30,668 nt of DNA from a virus. Taxonomy: Duplodnaviria; Heunggongvirae; Uroviricota; Caudoviricetes. Location of the stretch: the IMG/VR virus record IMGVR_UViG_3300045988_129107; one strand, 5' to 3'. Position numbers: made by a program. Positions 15,001-24,000 of the stretch are shown piece after piece; the first letter of the stretch is position 1; every line of letters starts with the position of its first letter.

Positions 15001-18000
15001 ATAAGAGATTTATTAAATTCGTCCTGCTCCTGAGAGCCTTTATAGTAAGCCAGCCCTAAGACGCCAACGGCTGCTGCGGCCAGGGTAAAAGGATTAATTA
15101 ATCCCAGCACATAAGAACCTACACCTTTGATCGCCGGGCCAATCCCACCGAACATATCTTTTAGCTGGCCGCCCTGCTGCATTAACACCATAAATGGCGA
15201 CTGACCAGTGGACAACCCAACAACAATATCCGTCATTTGTGCAGGCAACATGCGCATAGCAAAAGCCGTTTGTTTTGCCGACATTCCGGTTTTGCTTAAT
15301 TGCGATTGAGTAACCTCAAGCTCACTCCGCATAGCACGAAGTTTTCCAGAAAGCTCCTCATACATTTCAGGAGAAAGCATCCCCTTAGCTTTTGCTTCAT
15401 TGAGCTGTTTCTGTTGTTCTACCAGACGATTAAAAGCAGTTCCGACAGGATCAAGTTGAGCAATCAGACGTTGCAAAGCAGCAACCTGTTCATCATGTGC
15501 TTTTGCTGCTTCTCGCTCTGCCTGAGCCTCTCCGGTAAGCTCTCGCCGTGTTTCCTGTATTTTTCGGCTATAATTCTCAAACTGAGAACCATTTATTTTC
15601 CCGGATGCAAACGCAGCATTAAGTTCATCCTGCTGTTGTTCAAGATTTCTTAGCGCCGCAGCCAGAGGGTCGATCTTGTCCAGCATTCTTTGAAAGACCT
15701 GAGCCTGCGCTTCCTGCTGGGCGGCAGCAAGTTTTCCGGCCTTCTCGGCTTCTCTCTGCGCTTGCGCAACCCCGCTCAATTCCTCTGTGGTTTCATTAAG
15801 TTTACGGACAAGAAATTCATATTCTTCTTTATCAATAAGCCCTTTATCGAAAAATTTCTTTAATTCAGAATAGCGTCGACCGACAGTATCAATTGCGGCA
15901 CCAACTGGATCAATAGCTGCTTTTAATTTTGCGAGCGCGTTCTTCTCATCTTCTGTTGCCTTAGTCACTTTCCCTGCGCTATTTGCAGCAGTTTCCCCAG
16001 CCTGCGTCATTTTGACTAATGAGGAGGCCAGATTGTCAGCATTATTTTTCGCTCCAGTGCTATCAATAATTATTGCGAGACGCGAGGTTTGCTCTGCCAT
16101 TCATTAAAACTCCTGACAACAAAAAACCCACCGAAGTGGGTTTCAGGCGACATAATAGTAGATATAGCGATTACGAGGCCACGCAATGCTTTTCTCCAGG
16201 AGCATCATCGATTTAATTAAAGACACCATCACATCTCTGTAACAGAGAGTACGTAATTAACAACTACACACATTGCTCCTGAAAATACTGGTCATCCAGT
16301 GCAAAGATCACTGCTTCAAATTCATCGCGCTCAATCAATACCGGATGAGTGGCTAAATATTCATTTATCTCTGTCAGAGATAAAGGCAAAGGCACCCCAG
16401 TCATTCCAGCATAACGTCGGGCACGGGATATTACCGAATAGGCGTACAACAATTCCTTAAGCACCGGGTCTATTTCTGGTTCCGGTATCGGTGGCAACCT
16501 GAGTTTTTCTCGCTTCCATCTTGCCTTTTCACCCTTTTCTCCCCCGAACTCCGATAACCACCGCTGGGCGGCTATGGCTTTTTTATCGTATCCTGCTTCT
16601 GCTGCTCTTTACCCTGGGCGATGCTGGCTGCTTCTGCAAGGATCTGCCAGTACAACTCCGGATTCTGCTTAAGCAGCGCGATCCCTCGTTCTGGCGTATA
16701 TTCCAGTGCAACCTCAACACCATCAACCAGTTCACCAACCCCTTTCCAGTCTTTCAGCAGATAACGAGCAGCATTATCAATGAGTAAATCATCAACAGAA
16801 TCCACCTCGGAAACCTTTGCAATATCAAACTCCTTCGTTCCGACGTGCAAACTGGCATCCATTTTCTCAATGTGGCGACGGATTAATGCATTACGGGAGC
16901 GATACTGATCGTTATCGCTGCTTGCCACCAACAGTTTTAACCCGTCTACAGGTTTTAAGTCCTTCATTGGGGTAAACCAGCGTTCACCACCGATGATAAT
17001 TTTCTGATTAAGAATAAACATCCATAACCTCATTCAATGCGCCCCCCTGTAGTGCAGTACCACAGGGGGAATAACGGAAAATCAACTAATCGCCTCAGCA
17101 CTGGCTTTTGCGATCACGGCAGCCGGGGAGGCTTTTTTTCTGGTTATCGTAGGTGCTTCATCTGCTGCGGTAATGCTCAATTGAACCTGGATAATGTCGG
17201 TATTACCCCCATCAGGCCATTCACCTGACATCTGAACCTTCGGGAAACTGAAAGTGTATGCCCCCTCTCCATTCGAAAGCGTGAAGCTGAACGGAACTGT
17301 TTCTCCAGTCAGTGTTTTACTCCAGATTTCCCACGCGGCTTTAGACCATGAAAGCGTCACCGTACCGGACGGTGTAAAAGTAGTCGGAATATTTGCTCCT
17401 GCATAAGGCGAGCCAGTCCCGATACAACGCTGTGTCTGGAGTTTGTTATCGAACTGAATATCAAAACTGTCGATACAAAAACCGTTACCTCCGGCAACAC
17501 CATTCAGGCTTACTGCTGAAACCTCCTTAAACGAATAACGTAGCTTTCCTGCACTATCCACAGGTTCGCCTTTGATAAAATTCGTATCATCGGCCTTTGA
17601 TTCCCAGTCCAGCCCGGCAAAGGTTACGGTCGCCGTAATATCGCCGTCGTTAGGGATCTGCATTTTCCATGAGCCAACCTGCGCTCCTCTGACAACAGAG
17701 GCAATTCCGACATCGGACGCATAGGTCGCCAGAGAAAATGTTATTCGCTCATTCCCCATTGTCAGAGAATCACCTGACCATTCCGCGCCGAAACAGGATG
17801 CAAGAAAATCATCATGTTGACCCCAGCGAAATTTGGTACCAACATCACCGCCAACATCCACAGTGCCAGGCGTCGCCCCCTGAGCCATCCGGGAGCCACC
17901 AATCTCATTATTTTCGCCTTTATTCTGGGTGGGTTTTACTCCCCAGCTTGTGCGTTTTAATAAACTCCAGTCACCACTTGCTGGTGTGGTGCCTGCAACT

Positions 18001-21000: not shown

Positions 21001-24000
21001 ATCAACCCGGTCAGGGTATTTCCAGCCATAATTAAATATTCCTTAAAAATTTGCGTAATTGTGAATGGATTGAGTAGTGAGCTATCCAGCCCTGACACCA
21101 ACTCCCATCCGGAAGCTGGCAAATGTATTAATCAACGATTGTGATACCGTCTTTCAGTGCGTTTTGCTTACCTGCAACATCCAGTGCATCAAAAGCAGAG
21201 CGTTTCATCGTTTTCTGACCAATATCATGCTGTGTCGGACGGGAACCGCCGCCATTGTTGCCACTGGCTTTCAGGATGTAGTCTTTCTGAGGGTAATTTT
21301 CGACGAGGAACTCCAGCGCCTCATCAAACTGCGCCAGTTCTCCTGGCTTCGCGCGGGAATAAATTTTGTTGCCGGAAGCGTCATAAGCAACGATCTTCCC
21401 TTCTTCCACTTTGAATGCCTGTCCGAAGCGGGCTTGTAATAAATCTGCCGGGATCGCAATTTTATCGGCAATATATTTTGAACCCGCAAAACTACCGCCA
21501 ATCATAGAATCGTAAAGCTGCTTCTCCAGCATCTGAGAGCGTTGCTTTTCTTCATCTAATTGCTGCTGAAAATTTTTCGTAATTTCAGCCTTAACCTGGT
21601 CAACCTGTCCCGCATCGATCAGCTTTTTCTGGTCGATTTTTGACAGCATTTCCAGTGCCTCGATCGCCTTCTTCGGGTCTTCGATAGCGGCAAACTTAGC
21701 CAGTTTTTCCTCTGCAGCTTCTTTAGCCAGGCGATGATTTTTTGCCTCGCCATTAAGTTCTGTAATTTTTTTTGTCGCCAGCGGTGCATCGAAGCCGATT
21801 TCTTTACCATCGTCGTGCACATAAACTGGCAGGCCAGCAGTATCAATTTCTGCGTATTGTTTTCCGTTAATCTCGACCGTTTTCAGTTTCATATTAGTAC
21901 CTGGTTTAAGTCTTCCGACAGTTACGCTGCTCACCATCCGGATCGCAGCAATAAAAAAGGCCACCCGAAGGTAGCCTGTTGTAATAAATGATTTATTTAA
22001 ATCCCTGCTTTTCTGAATACCTGTGCATCACGCTCACGGAGTTGCTTCAGCGTCAGCCATTCGCCTTTATCGGTGTAAAATTCATCTGGCGACATACCAC
22101 CATCCCGAATCAGCTTTGCCCGGGTTTCCCCCACAATCTGTTTTTGTCTGGTGTAAGGCTGACGCAAAAACCATTCCCTGTAGGTTGTATCTCCGGCCAC
22201 CACGCCATCCATGCTGGCCCGCTCAGCCGGGGAAATATCACGAACATCAATACCCAGTTCCTTCGCTGATTTCAGAATGAACGTTTCCGTTGAGCGGCAG
22301 CAGAAATGAATTTTTCCCGGCCCCTGCAAATAAGGCACGCTGTGACCTACAGGTTTATTATCCAGCGTATATTTGAGGCGATCCCTGATTCGACATTGTG
22401 GCGTAGTACGATTATCAAGCGTTGATAACCATTGCTTACCCTTAATCAAATCATTATTCGCGCGTGCAAAACTCTCACGAGCAGTAGCAGCAAGATGTCC
22501 AACCGCTGTTTTTGCAATGCTGGCCGCATTAGCCCGGCTCATCTGCAATGCACCATCCTGAAATCCCTTACTGACATGTCCCCGAATTTTTCTTGCGATC
22601 TGCTCATTGGTATCCCCCAGCAAAAAACCCTGACGCACCGTATTTGTTATGCGTCTGAGCCGATCCGCCTCAAGATCTGAGGCCCACTCACTGAGCAGTC
22701 GTCCCTGGAATGGTCGCGCCATTGCAGCGGCGTAAAGTGCATCAGAAGAGATACCAACCAGAGGGTGAACATCAGCAACAAAATCAGGTAGCAGAGAATC
22801 AAACAGACTTAACTGATAACCAACCTCATAAATTGCCAGCTCGTTCAGCTCTCCGGAGAGACTGGTAAACATGCTGTTAATAGCAGTGCGGTTAACCTCT
22901 CTGACACTCGCCAGAAGTGACTCCAGGCGCGTAACGGTAAAACTACTAGGATCGAGGCTGTCCAGTGCTACCAGCAGGCGAGCTGTAAGCTCCGCATCGC
23001 TGTCATTCAGTATTTTCACTATTCTGGCAGCCACACCAGTGCTATAGCGGGATATCCAGACTGCATGAGCAATTGATTCATCACGCAGCCGTTCATTCAC
23101 GGTTTGCATCATTGATTTCCATCAGCATTACACTCTGATTTTTTAATTCATCGATCACTTCCTCTGGACGGGAATCCTGATCGATAAATTTCAACGCCTG
23201 CAACACCCGAACCGCATCAATCTGACGTATATCACCGCCCTGACGCAATGACTGAACAGCCAGCGCGGAGGATGAGTCAAACACCTGGGCAGATACATCC
23301 AGTTCAGTGCGCACATCCACATTGCCACCGCAACTCTCTCCGCTCCATTCCGCCATTATCTGGAGAATATTATCGAGGGCATCTTCGAGGGAGTTCGCCA
23401 TTGTATAAAGCGGCGAGTGTTCCTGCATCCGCTCTTCATTAGTCTGATCAACAGATTTGGTGGATGTATTTTCAGCCCGCAGAAGTTTAGCGCCGGCATG
23501 ACGCATCTGATTTTCCAGCTTCTCAAGTGATGTTTCGCCAGATTCTATCGCTGCGCCACTATGTTCAACATATTCGAGGCCATTTTTTGTTCTGTCCTCA
23601 AAAATCGTAGCGGTGGATGCACCAACCGTCAGTTCTTCATTCCTGTCCAGCCCGTAGGCCACCAGCAATGGAACGCGGGCAACATGAAGAATATTGTCCT
23701 GCTCGCTCTGGCTTTGCCAGTGCTTGATATTCAGCAAGCCAAGATTAAGCAATGGCGGTGTACCACGCATAAACCCTGTTTTCTTCGTATACAGTGTTAC
23801 CAGAGGAATATCATCACGGCTGGTATTCCATGACTCATGAAGCGTCCAGACAGATTCGCCATTAGTACCTTCGCTGCGTCGATAAATTTCAACTCGACGG
23901 GGCATAATATGGCGGATCTGCTCCACCTTCTTCTGCCCGAAATCATCACCATCAATAATGATGACCTCTTTTATACGCAAATCAGTGAGAACAACTTTCC

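What the first reader, a model, noticed from the sequence alone, without database searches (positions are those of the whole stretch)
16119..21975. Three UUCG-tetraloop hairpins with U-tracts inside the late operon
At 16119..16143 (before the tape measure RBS), 19860..19883 (after the capsid gene) and 21946..21975 (after the MuF-like gene) the minus-strand RNA forms a GC-rich stem closed by a UUCG loop and followed by five or six U. The shared design at gene-block boundaries suggests deliberate partial terminators or RNA-stability elements that set expression ratios along the late transcript.
Basis: seen in the sequence. Interest (0 to 1): 0.45.

Follow-up and report, generated by a model that had tools for sequence, protein, structure and literature searches.

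The report
Conserved terminator hairpins in prophage late operon
The three UUCG hairpins are real, evolutionarily conserved Rho-independent-terminator-type elements at module boundaries of a Rac-like lambdoid prophage late operon, a feature already annotated in P22, lambda-type phages and HK639 whose role is still unproven; next to one of them lies a possibly undescribed conserved RNA leader in front of the scaffold and capsid genes.

Summary
Observation confirmed. Minus-strand hairpins at 16144..16121, 19879..19860 and 21977..21953 each have a GC stem, a C(UUCG)G loop and 5-6 U. They are the only such elements in 30.7 kb (shuffles give 0.035), and all are intergenic and co-oriented with the late genes.

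The window is a Rac-like lambdoid prophage. All three sites are positional constants of their modules in relatives from many genera. Site 3 keeps its stem through compensatory changes (7 of 8 pairs). Site 2 is the same GGGGC-UNCG-GCCCC stem-loop annotated after the P22 coat gene, and lambda has a UUCG hairpin after gene E. Site 1 always sits just before the tape-measure RBS, with morons inserted upstream of it.

The UUCG loop is not a special shared design. It varies at sites 1 and 3, and UNCG loops are the commonest in this phage group's terminators.

Most likely these are true terminators, read through by Q-modified polymerase, that insulate modules from non-antiterminated transcription and then serve as 3' hairpin caps. 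Simple graded attenuation fits poorly, because site 3 lies directly upstream of the two most abundant proteins.

Novelty is low. Bonus: a covariation-supported array of GGAU/GGAA-loop hairpins precedes the scaffold and capsid genes and has no Rfam match.

The parts
16121..16144 (-). T1: terminator hairpin GAAACCCAC-UUCG-GUGGGUUUU plus U6, 20 nt upstream of the tape-measure ATG (16100). It lies at the end of a 163-nt gap after the G-T frameshift product stop (16264).
   Evidence: positional conservation
19860..19879 (-). T2: GGGGC-UUCG-GCCCC-A-UUUUU in the 42-nt gap between the major capsid stop (19890) and the ATG of a 74-aa gene (19847).
   Evidence: near-invariant in relatives; same stem as the annotated P22 stem_loop
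21953..21977 (-). T3: AGGCUACC-UUCG-GGUGGCCU plus U6, 19 nt after the MuF-like stop (21997). It is the 5' boundary of the scaffold-capsid cassette.
   Evidence: covariation (helix 1: 7 of 8 pairs with double changes); homologous site annotated 'terminator' in HK639
21893..21952 (-). Scaffold-gene leader. Hairpin A is GCUGC..CC-GGAU-GG..GCAGC (21949..21926). Hairpin B is GUC-GGAA-GAC (21919..21910). The scaffold ATG follows at 21892.
   Evidence: no Rfam hit
21079..21120 (-). Second copy of the GGAU-hairpin element in the scaffold-capsid gap. A' is GCCAGCUUCC-GGAU-GGGAGUUGGU (21120..21097). B' is GGGCU-GGAU-AGCUC (21092..21079).
21128..21892 (-). Scaffold-like gene (DUF6651, PF20356; PHROG 784/206). 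The true start is ATG 21892, not the annotated GTG 21964.
19890..21029 (-). Major capsid gene (P22_CoatProtein PF11651, PHROG 283). The start is most likely ATG 21029.
21997..23112 (-). MuF-like head morphogenesis gene upstream of T3.
12867..16100 (-). Tape measure gene downstream of T1.
7042..7067 (-). Further late-operon terminator after the J-like gene (GGGCGCCA-GAAA-UGGCGCCU plus U6).
6365..6392 (-). Terminator after the Ail/Lom moron (6419..7018). Together with the previous one it brackets that moron.
28742..28765 (-). 10-bp hairpin after trkG (28852..30327), with a weak U tail.

Best explanation
The three elements are genuine Rho-independent terminators that are fixed parts of the head and tail modules of a lambdoid (Rac-like) late operon. 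T3 and T2 bracket the scaffold-capsid cassette, and T1 sits directly in front of the tape-measure gene. Shown: the anatomy, the intergenic co-oriented placement, the excess over chance, the conservation of position in every relative examined, the compensatory stem changes, and the conserved U-tracts. Inferred mechanism, in three steps. (1) RNA polymerase that has not been modified by the phage Q antiterminator stops at these sites. Such polymerase comes from stray promoters, from prophage-expressed morons such as trkG and lom, or from cargo that relatives carry just upstream of T1 and T3. The structural modules therefore stay silent in the lysogen and early in infection. (2) Q-modified polymerase from the late promoter reads through, so the sites cost little late expression. 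(3) Once transcribed, the very stable UNCG hairpins remain in the late mRNA as barriers to 3'-exonucleases after endonucleolytic cleavage. This would give the scaffold-capsid segment, capped 5' by the leader hairpins and 3' by T2, a half-life of its own. The UUCG loop is the economical way to make a short stem stable in a 40-100 nt gap. It is not a signature linking the three sites.
For: Identity as a Rac-like lambdoid prophage, with Q upstream of lysis-trkG-terminase in a 98%-identical phage, comes. T3: a hairpin plus U5-7 is present upstream of the scaffold leader in about 50 diverse loci (E. coli to Cupriavidus, Janthinobacterium, Xanthobacter, Pseudomonas PS-1, Acinetobacter TCUAN1). The stems differ widely. 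In the whole terminator-plus-leader structure of alignment A2, 95.8% of cells are paired, 20 of 23 pairs show double changes, 0 of 500 shuffles reach the observed values, and slid controls give 28-59%. 75 of 80 further viral contigs also have the T-run. A U-tract conserved even in high-GC hosts argues for termination rather than mere stability. T2: GGGGC-UUCG-GCCCC is kept across Enterobacterales while the flanks diverge, with compensatory variants GGGGA-UUCG-UCCCC and GGGGG-AUUAA-CCCCC. Distant relatives have unrelated hairpins at the same place. The same stem follows the P22 coat gene, and lambda has UGGCCC-UUCG-GGGCCA after gene E. T1: in 80 contigs a hairpin plus U5-7 always precedes the tape-measure SD, whether the gap is 39 nt (terminator only), 163-165 nt, or 746-1783 nt with morons. 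Morons also insert between the MuF stop and T3 and bring an extra terminator of their own (L067, L080, L103, L113). This is the arrangement expected if the resident terminator shields the downstream genes. Literature: phage L has an intra-late-operon terminator at the end of the procapsid module. The authors state its role is unknown and offer partial termination or blocking of spurious non-antiterminated transcription as possibilities (PMC8022706). SPP1 has predicted terminators right after gene 7 (MuF) and gene 13 (capsid) (PMC6316719 with X97918).
Against: There are no transcript 3'-end or coverage data for this prophage. The K-12 Term-seq supplement lists no 3' end at the Rac copy of T1, which is uninformative if the region is silent. 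The Q gene is outside the window and is known only from the near-identical phage. No promoter-like site above chance was found inside the operon that would need insulating. At T2 the U-tract is imperfect in many relatives and absent in several distant ones (L074, L079, L096, Cupriavidus, Janthinobacterium, Xanthobacter). This fits a stability hairpin better than a terminator. Several phages that share T3 (PS-1, TCUAN1) are not known to use Q-type antitermination.
Confidence: 0.5

Rival explanations
1. Primarily RNA-processing and stability elements. The hairpins are selected as 3' caps. The single-stranded UUUUUUAU between T3 and leader hairpin A is an RNase E-type cleavage site, so the late transcript is cut into segments with different half-lives. 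Termination would be incidental.
For: The T2 stem is kept even where the U-tract decays or is absent. T3 is always immediately followed by structured hairpins that could protect a new 5' end. The scaffold-capsid segment would be capped at both ends, matching the need for high expression. Q-modified polymerase is expected to ignore terminators (established knowledge of lambda Q).
Against: A 3'-exonuclease barrier needs no U-tract, yet U5-7 is conserved at T3 and T1 in nearly all relatives, including high-GC hosts. No processing data exist.
Confidence: 0.25
2. One reading: leaky (partial) terminators that step transcription down along the operon and so set protein ratios.
For: T2 follows the most abundant protein's gene, and T1 precedes the low-copy tape measure and tail-tip genes. 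T7 and LUZ100 have a strong terminator right after the capsid gene, with experimental support (PMC10134795). Phage L authors list this as one possibility.
Against: T3 lies directly upstream of the scaffold and capsid genes, which need the highest output, and it is the best conserved of the three. The operon is Q-antiterminated in the close relative. From my own knowledge, not checked here: Sampson, Hendrix, Huang and Casjens (PNAS 1988) found lambda late-gene ratios to be set by translation initiation on a roughly uniform mRNA.
Confidence: 0.15
3. Evolutionary leftovers. The hairpins are the terminators of past or present morons, or recombination joints between modules, and have no role in the phage's own programme. 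This would apply especially to T1.
For: T1 and T3 are the slots where relatives carry morons. The window's T1 gap holds 119 nt of AT-rich sequence of unknown origin.
Against: The terminator is present with a 39-nt gap and no cargo (L333). It is also present in all cargo-free relatives at T3, with compensatory changes that show purifying selection on the structure. Inserted morons bring a second terminator of their own rather than replacing the resident one.
Confidence: 0.07
4. Chance hairpins.
For: None beyond their small size (5-9 bp stems).
Against: Three observed against 0.035 expected. They are strand-specific and intergenic, and they are conserved.
Confidence: 0.01

Closest known systems
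Post-capsid-gene stem-loop of lambdoid phages (P22 NC_002371 stem_loop 6102..6119, noted there as 'similar in location to stem-loops in phage HK97 and phage lambda'; lambda E-FI gap)
   Same: T2 is in the same place, a few nt after the major capsid stop and just before the next RBS. It has the same stem as P22 (GGGGC/GCCCC; P22 loop UGCG, here UUCG). Lambda has UGGCCC-UUCG-GGGCCA followed by a U-rich tail. The capsid here is in the P22_CoatProtein family.
   Different: Nothing essential differs. The lambda capsid gene belongs to a different family, so there the resemblance is positional. The function is untested in all of them.
Annotated terminator of phage HK639 (HM208537, regulatory feature 4901..4922, between the MuF-like gene 04 and the scaffold-like gene 05)
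   Same: This is the homologous site to T3: a hairpin with a UUCG loop plus U6, followed by the same GGAU-hairpin leader and a DUF6651 gene.
   Different: The stem sequence differs (GGUCGC/GCGGCC against GGCUACC/GGUGGCC). HK639 has the long leader with a third hairpin and no capsid leader.
Intra-late-operon terminators of P22-like phage L (Zaworski et al. 2021, PMC8022706) and predicted late-cluster terminators of SPP1 (PMC6316719)
   Same: These are terminators inside an operon thought to have one late promoter, placed at the end of the procapsid module. In SPP1 they fall right after gene 7 (MuF) and gene 13 (capsid), the same two junctions as T3 and T2.
   Different: They are predictions only and their roles are stated to be unknown. 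The SPP1 host is Gram-positive and SPP1 is not known to use Q.
T7 T-phi and the LUZ100 terminator downstream of the major capsid gene
   Same: A strong hairpin terminator lies immediately after the capsid gene and delimits a highly expressed capsid unit.
   Different: Those phages use their own RNA polymerase and a local promoter. Here no internal promoter is evident, and host polymerase with Q is expected.
Morons (promoter-gene-terminator cassettes between late genes; Juhala et al. 2000, own knowledge)
   Same: T1 and T3 are the slots where relatives carry Ail/Lom, lipoprotein and other cargo genes, each with a terminator. The window's own lom is bracketed by terminators.
   Different: In the window no cargo gene or promoter accompanies T1 or T3. 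The terminators exist without cargo.
CsrA/RsmA-type leaders with GGA in hairpin loops (relevant only to the adjacent GGAU-hairpin leader)
   Same: There are several short hairpins presenting GGA, and the last one lies next to the SD. UCGGAUGA resembles the hcnA site ACGGAUGA (own knowledge).
   Different: GGA occupies loop positions 1-3 rather than 2-4. The element occurs in phages of beta- and alpha-proteobacteria and a cyanobacterium, hosts that to my knowledge lack CsrA.

Membership tests
Intrinsic (Rho-independent) terminator | GC-rich stem-loop, stem about 5-14 bp, loop 3-8 nt | tested here: met
   Stems of 9, 5 and 8 bp with 4-nt loops; energies -13.0, -11.1 and -13.8 kcal/mol
Intrinsic (Rho-independent) terminator | U-rich tract immediately 3' of the stem | tested here: met
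   U6, A+U5 and U6. The tract is conserved at T1 and T3 in relatives and less strictly at T2.
Intrinsic (Rho-independent) terminator | Same orientation as transcription, outside coding sequence | tested here: met
   All are on the minus strand in gaps of the minus-strand gene chain. The GenBank start GTG 21964 that overlaps T3 is a mis-call.
Intrinsic (Rho-independent) terminator | Structure maintained by compensatory substitutions | tested here: met
   T3: 7 of 8 pairs with changes on both sides, 0 of 500 shuffles. T2: a few compensatory variants. T1: replaced by different hairpins at the same position.
Intrinsic (Rho-independent) terminator | Produces RNA 3' ends in vivo or in vitro | tested here: inconclusive
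   The K-12 Term-seq supplement (PMC7815308) has no entry at the Rac copy of T1. The region may simply be untranscribed, and there are no data for T2 or T3.
C(UUCG)G extra-stable tetraloop hairpin | UUCG loop closed by a C-G pair | tested here: met
   All three read ...C UUCG G...
C(UUCG)G extra-stable tetraloop hairpin | Loop identity conserved, as it would be if the loop itself were recognised | tested here: not met
   T3 loops include UCCG, UCAG, UACG, UAAC, GCAU and others. T1 has UUCGCG in the commoner allele and unrelated loops elsewhere. Only T2 keeps UUCG/UNCG widely.
Lambdoid post-capsid stem-loop (P22, HK97, lambda) | GC hairpin within about 25 nt after the major capsid stop, before the next RBS | tested here: met
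   T2 lies 10 nt after the stop. P22 has the same stem and lambda has a UUCG hairpin.
Moron cassette | Own promoter plus cargo ORF plus terminator inserted between late genes | tested here: not met
   In the window there is no promoter-like site and no cargo gene at T1 or T3, only a doubtful 28-codon ORF. Relatives do carry cargo there.
Terminators overridden by Q-type processive antitermination | Located downstream of a Q gene and late promoter in the same transcription unit | tested here: inconclusive
   Q is annotated upstream of lysis-trkG-terminase in the 98%-identical phage vB_EcoS-666R9, but it lies outside this window. Read-through is not testable here.
Any Rfam family | Match to a curated covariance model | tested here: not met
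   There is no hit at gathering score in the window. There is no hit on the hairpins or leaders at E<=1 in the window or in HK639, PS-1, TCUAN1 or Yong-M4-211.

The most novel reading that the evidence does not exclude
T3 is not 'the terminator after MuF'. It is the 5' edge of a deeply conserved post-transcriptional cassette: terminator, then an array of 2-3 short hairpins with constant GGAU/GGAA (rarely GGAC) loops and covarying stems, then the DUF6651 scaffold gene, then in about half of relatives (including this window) a second GGAU-hairpin pair, then the capsid gene, then T2. The GGAU-hairpin array would be an undescribed cis-regulatory RNA that controls translation or stability of the two most abundant head proteins. 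Candidate roles are an operator for scaffold autoregulation (known post-transcriptionally in P22 but with no defined RNA target), a site for a GGA-binding protein, or an SD-like standby site. Its loops read GGANG and never GGAGG.
Probability: 0.5. Interest if true: 0.65.

Novelty: already known. Interest (0 to 1): 0.3.

Why it matters
For the finding as given, the value is mainly confirmation. Intra-operon terminators of lambdoid late operons are often annotated, but published work says their roles are unknown (PMC8022706). The comparative data here show that all three are under purifying selection as structures with U-tracts. They also show that two of them are the fixed downstream edge of cargo (moron) slots. 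This narrows the plausible functions and makes the question easy to test in a plaque-forming relative such as HK639. The data also correct the gene starts of the scaffold and capsid genes in deposited relatives. The adjacent GGAU-hairpin leader, if functional, would give a handle on how phages with this head module set scaffold and capsid output.

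Tried and rejected
(1) Rfam, at gathering score on the whole window and at E<=1 on 15900-22200 and on four phage loci: nothing on the hairpins or leaders.

(2) Experimental 3' ends: the supplement of Adams et al. 2021 has no 3' end near NC_000913 position 1426430, the Rac copy of T1.

(3) Internal sigma-70 promoters that could make T3-T2 an independent unit: promoter-like sites are at or below the shuffle expectation, and none lies in the T3-to-scaffold gap.

(4) The idea that the 119-nt spacer before T1 is a remnant of a relative's moron: no similarity to any fetched locus apart from the near-identical Rac-type copies.

(5) The P22 scaffold gene as a home of the GGAU leader: P22 has only 13 nt between the portal and scaffold genes.

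(6) Literature searches for UUCG over-representation in E. coli terminators, for lambda late mRNA profiles, and for DUF6651 or GGAUG hairpins gave nothing usable. That UUCG is the commonest tetraloop of E. coli terminators (d'Aubenton Carafa et al. 1990) therefore rests on my own knowledge, plus the loop census.

(7) Bidirectional-terminator reading: the plus-strand complement lacks a T-run, and no plus-strand candidates were found.

(8) My first crude test for a scaffold ORF downstream of the leader pattern failed and was replaced by tblastn.

Full report
WHAT THE WINDOW IS. The 6.3 kb around the finding is 98% identical to induced E. coli and Salmonella phages (vB_EcoS-666R9 and others). The site-1 region occurs in 1076 of 5426 complete E. 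coli genomes, including the Rac prophage of K-12 at the ydaY-ynaA junction. Annotation of the near-identical phage, together with PHROG and Pfam scans, gives the following minus-strand late operon:
- trkG (28852-30327)
- a ParB-like gene
- terS and terL
- portal
- MuF-like gene (21997-23112)
- DUF6651 scaffold-like gene (21128-21892)
- P22-type major capsid gene (19890-21029)
- small head-completion genes
- major tail gene
- G, and G-T made by a -1 shift at A_AAA_AAG (16584..16578), with the T frame ending at 16264
- tape measure gene (12867-16100)
- tail-tip genes, J, lom and tail fibre genes

This map rests. In the related phage a Q antiterminator gene lies upstream of the lysis genes and trkG. 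That position is outside this window.

THE OBSERVATION.
- T1 is GAAACCCAC-UUCG-GUGGGUUUU followed by a U-tract (16144..16121).
- T2 is GGGGC-UUCG-GCCCC-A-UUUUU (19879..19860).
- T3 is AGGCUACC-UUCG-GGUGGCCU-UUUUU (21977..21953).

Fold energies are -13.0, -11.1 and -13.8 kcal/mol, with z-scores of -2.5, -2.5 and -4.4. The hairpins survive folding in 50-100 nt of context. Of 233 TTCG occurrences on the two strands, only these three close a stem of at least 5 bp with at least 3 GC pairs and are followed by a T-run. All three are on the coding strand of the operon. One thousand dinucleotide-preserving shuffles give a mean of 0.035 such elements and never more than one.

The same operon has three further terminator-like hairpins with other loops. 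One follows J (7067..7048, GAAA loop), one follows lom (6392..6371), and one follows trkG (28765..28742). The pattern is therefore 'a terminator in almost every sizeable intergenic gap', not three special sites.

SITE 2 (AFTER THE CAPSID GENE). I examined 80 viral contigs and 47 species-representative genomes with a related capsid (38-100% amino-acid identity).
- GGGGC-UUCG-GCCCC is almost invariant across Escherichia, Citrobacter, Pantoea, Serratia, Rahnella, Erwinia, Tatumella, Leclercia, Kluyvera, Enterobacter, Sodalis and others. The spacer after the stop codon and the tail differ.
- Variants include UACG, UGCG and CUCG loops, a G-U pair, and two compensatory forms in Photorhabdus (GGGGA-UUCG-UCCCC and GGGGG-AUUAA-CCCCC).
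- Distant relatives (Cupriavidus, Pararobbsia, Janthinobacterium, Xanthobacter, Desulfuromonadales, Pseudomonas PS-1, Acinetobacter TCUAN1) have unrelated GC hairpins at the same place, some without a U-tract.
Its sequence is AGGGGC-UGCG-GCCCCU followed by UUCUUUAUGGAG, which is the same stem.
- Lambda has UGGCCC-UUCG-GGGCCA followed by UUGUUUCUCU between E and FI.

T2 is thus a member of an already recognised feature.

SITE 3 (AFTER MuF, BEFORE THE SCAFFOLD GENE). The hairpin and its U5-7 are present in every relative that has the DUF6651 gene and enough upstream sequence. The stems differ widely:
- GGCUGCC-UCCG-GGCGGCC
- GGCUGCC-UCAG-GGCAGCC
- GGUCGC-UUCG-GCGGCC
- CCACC-UACG-GGUGG
- ACCUGC-UUCG-GCAGGU
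- AGACUCC-UAAC-GGGGUCU
- long GC stems in Burkholderiales

On a 30-sequence alignment, 7 of the 8 terminator pairs show changes on both sides. For the whole structure, 95.8% of cells are paired, 20 of 23 pairs have double changes, no shuffle of 500 reaches the observed values, and slid controls fall to 28-59%. HK639's GenBank record already annotates this site as a terminator. When the upstream neighbour is not MuF (a regulator gene in PS-1, a small ORF in TCUAN1), or when a 0.4-0.75 kb cargo insertion is present (L067, L080, L103, L113 and others), the terminator stays next to the scaffold leader. The cargo brings a second terminator of its own. T3 therefore belongs to the scaffold-capsid cassette rather than to MuF.

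SITE 1 (BEFORE THE TAPE MEASURE GENE). In 80 viral contigs and several genomes with a related tape measure protein, a hairpin plus U5-7 always lies just before the tape-measure SD. Everything upstream of it varies:
- a 39-nt gap that contains only the terminator
- the 163-nt gap of this window
- a 165-nt allele with a UUCGCG hexaloop, which is the K-12 form and is slightly commoner (35 contigs against about 30)
- gaps of 746-1783 nt carrying Ail/Lom, lipoprotein or other cargo, with different terminators

The 119-nt spacer in this window resembles nothing else I hold.

IS 'UUCG' A SHARED DESIGN? No. The loop is not conserved at T1 or T3. Among 75 distinct strong terminator-like hairpins in 48 prophage loci from different species, 54 have tetraloops. 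UUCG (12) and UCCG (9) are the commonest, although homologous sites contribute to this count. From established knowledge (d'Aubenton Carafa et al. 1990, not re-checked here), UUCG is also the commonest tetraloop of E. coli terminators. A short stem squeezed into a 40-100 nt gap needs such a loop to be stable, and that is sufficient to explain the resemblance.

MECHANISM. The features that are conserved are a stem, a U-tract and a position. They point to transcription termination as a selected activity at T1 and T3, and to the hairpin itself at T2. Graded attenuation fits T2 and T1 but not T3, because T3 immediately precedes the two genes needed in the highest amounts. The operon is also Q-antiterminated in the close relative.

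My preferred reading is that these are fail-safe terminators for polymerase that has not acquired Q. That would keep the structural modules silent in the lysogen, in particular downstream of prophage-expressed cargo. The same sites would be read through late in infection, and the hairpins would then remain in the mRNA as 3' caps. This is one of the two possibilities offered for phage L, whose authors state that the roles of such terminators are unknown (PMC8022706).

A purely post-transcriptional role (processing and stability) is the main rival, followed by partial termination. None of these can be decided without RNA data. The one dataset I could check is silent.

ANALOGUES. SPP1, with the same portal-MuF-scaffold-capsid gene order, has predicted terminators immediately after gene 7 and gene 13. 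T7-like phages have a mapped strong terminator after the capsid gene.

SEEN ON THE WAY: A CONSERVED LEADER. Between T3 and the scaffold ATG lies a leader built of short hairpins whose stems covary and whose loops are constant.
- Hairpin A has an outer stem, an internal loop and a 2-bp inner stem closing GGAU.
- Hairpin B has a GGAU or GGAA loop.
- In the long form there is a hairpin C, with a GGAA or GGAU loop, next to the SD.

A covariance model finds one strong copy per locus (55-107 bits). It also finds a second, weaker copy (24-40 bits, E about 1e-6 to 1e-12) just upstream of the capsid ATG in about half of the relatives, including this window (A' 21120..21097, B' 21092..21079). That copy is also supported by covariation: 95.5% of cells paired, 12 of 15 pairs with double changes, 0 of 500 shuffles.

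The element occurs in HK639, Pseudomonas PS-1, Acinetobacter TCUAN1, Burkholderiales and Xanthobacter prophages, and in looser form in a Synechococcus phage. An exact long-form pattern hits at least 120 viral contigs. In 76 of the 80 fetched, a DUF6651 gene starts about 34 nt downstream. There is no Rfam match, and no paper in the library mentions DUF6651.

The fourth loop base is U, A or C and never G, so the loops resemble but never equal the SD core GGAGG. The host range argues against a factor restricted to gamma-proteobacteria. I did not establish what binds the element.

The leaders also show that the deposited starts of the scaffold gene (GTG 21964, inside T3) and of the capsid gene (21098) are probably wrong. 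ATG 21892 and ATG 21029 fit the PHROG profiles and the conserved RNA.

VERDICT. The elements are ordinary, already annotated kinds of phage late-operon terminators. The 'shared UUCG design' is not specific, and the proposed function is only partly supported and remains untested. Interest in the finding itself is low to moderate. The neighbouring GGAU-hairpin leader is the part worth following up.

Noticed in passing
window 21893..21952 (minus strand); also L136 2386-2503, L137 2386-2503, L138 2395-2515: A conserved leader lies between T3 and the scaffold ATG. It consists of 2-3 hairpins with covarying stems and constant GGAU/GGAA loops. It is found from E. coli to Burkholderiales, Xanthobacter, Pseudomonas and Acinetobacter phages and in at least 120 viral contigs. 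It is always followed by a DUF6651 gene and has no Rfam match.
   Followed up: yes
window 21079..21120 (minus strand): A second copy of the GGAU-hairpin pair lies in the scaffold-capsid gap. It is present in about half of the relatives and is supported by covariation. It implies coordinated control of scaffold and capsid.
   Followed up: yes
window 21964 and 21098/21122 versus 21892 and 21029: Deposited relatives start the scaffold gene at GTG 21964, inside the T3 hairpin, and the capsid gene at 21098. The profile matches and the conserved leaders indicate ATG 21892 and ATG 21029 instead.
   Followed up: partly
window 16143..16229 (minus strand): A 28-codon ORF (MVSLIKSMMLLEKSIAWPRNRYIYYYVA) fills the AT-rich spacer between the T stop and T1, and its TGA overlaps the foot of the hairpin. 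The RBS is weak. All copies held are nearly identical, so coding cannot be judged.
   Followed up: partly
L003 3400-4170; L085, L087, L100, L103 (T-to-tape-measure gap); L067, L080, L103, L106, L113 (MuF-to-scaffold gap): Relatives carry cargo genes (Ail/Lom, lipoproteins, others; 0.4-1.8 kb) inserted between the upstream stop codon and the resident terminator at the T1 and T3 slots. The cargo often comes with an additional terminator of its own.
   Followed up: partly
L002 5410-5434 (NC_000913 about 1426409-1426433): K-12 Rac retains T1 between ydaY and ynaA with a 2-nt insertion that turns the UUCG tetraloop into UUCGCG. This allele is the commoner one among viral contigs.
   Followed up: yes
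window 16578..16584 (minus strand): The slippery heptamer A_AAA_AAG lies 4 nt before the ydaY (G-like chaperone) stop. The -1 frame stays open to 16264, which is the classical G/GT tail-chaperone frameshift. The deposited annotation lists the T part as a separate hypothetical ORF.
   Followed up: partly
window 26597..26670: Six copies of TGCGCA/TGCACA, spaced about 10-13 nt apart and separated by A-runs, lie inside the 5' part of the small-terminase gene. This looks like a pac or TerS-binding repeat array.
   Followed up: no
window 6365..7067 (minus strand): The Ail/Lom gene (6419..7018) is bracketed by two strong terminators (7067..7048 and 6392..6371). This is a textbook moron between J and the tail-fibre genes.
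   Followed up: partly
window 2616..2634 (plus strand): A strong plus-strand terminator (GCCCACC-TCACT-GGTGGGC plus T6) lies at the left end of the window, where the gene orientation changes.
   Followed up: no
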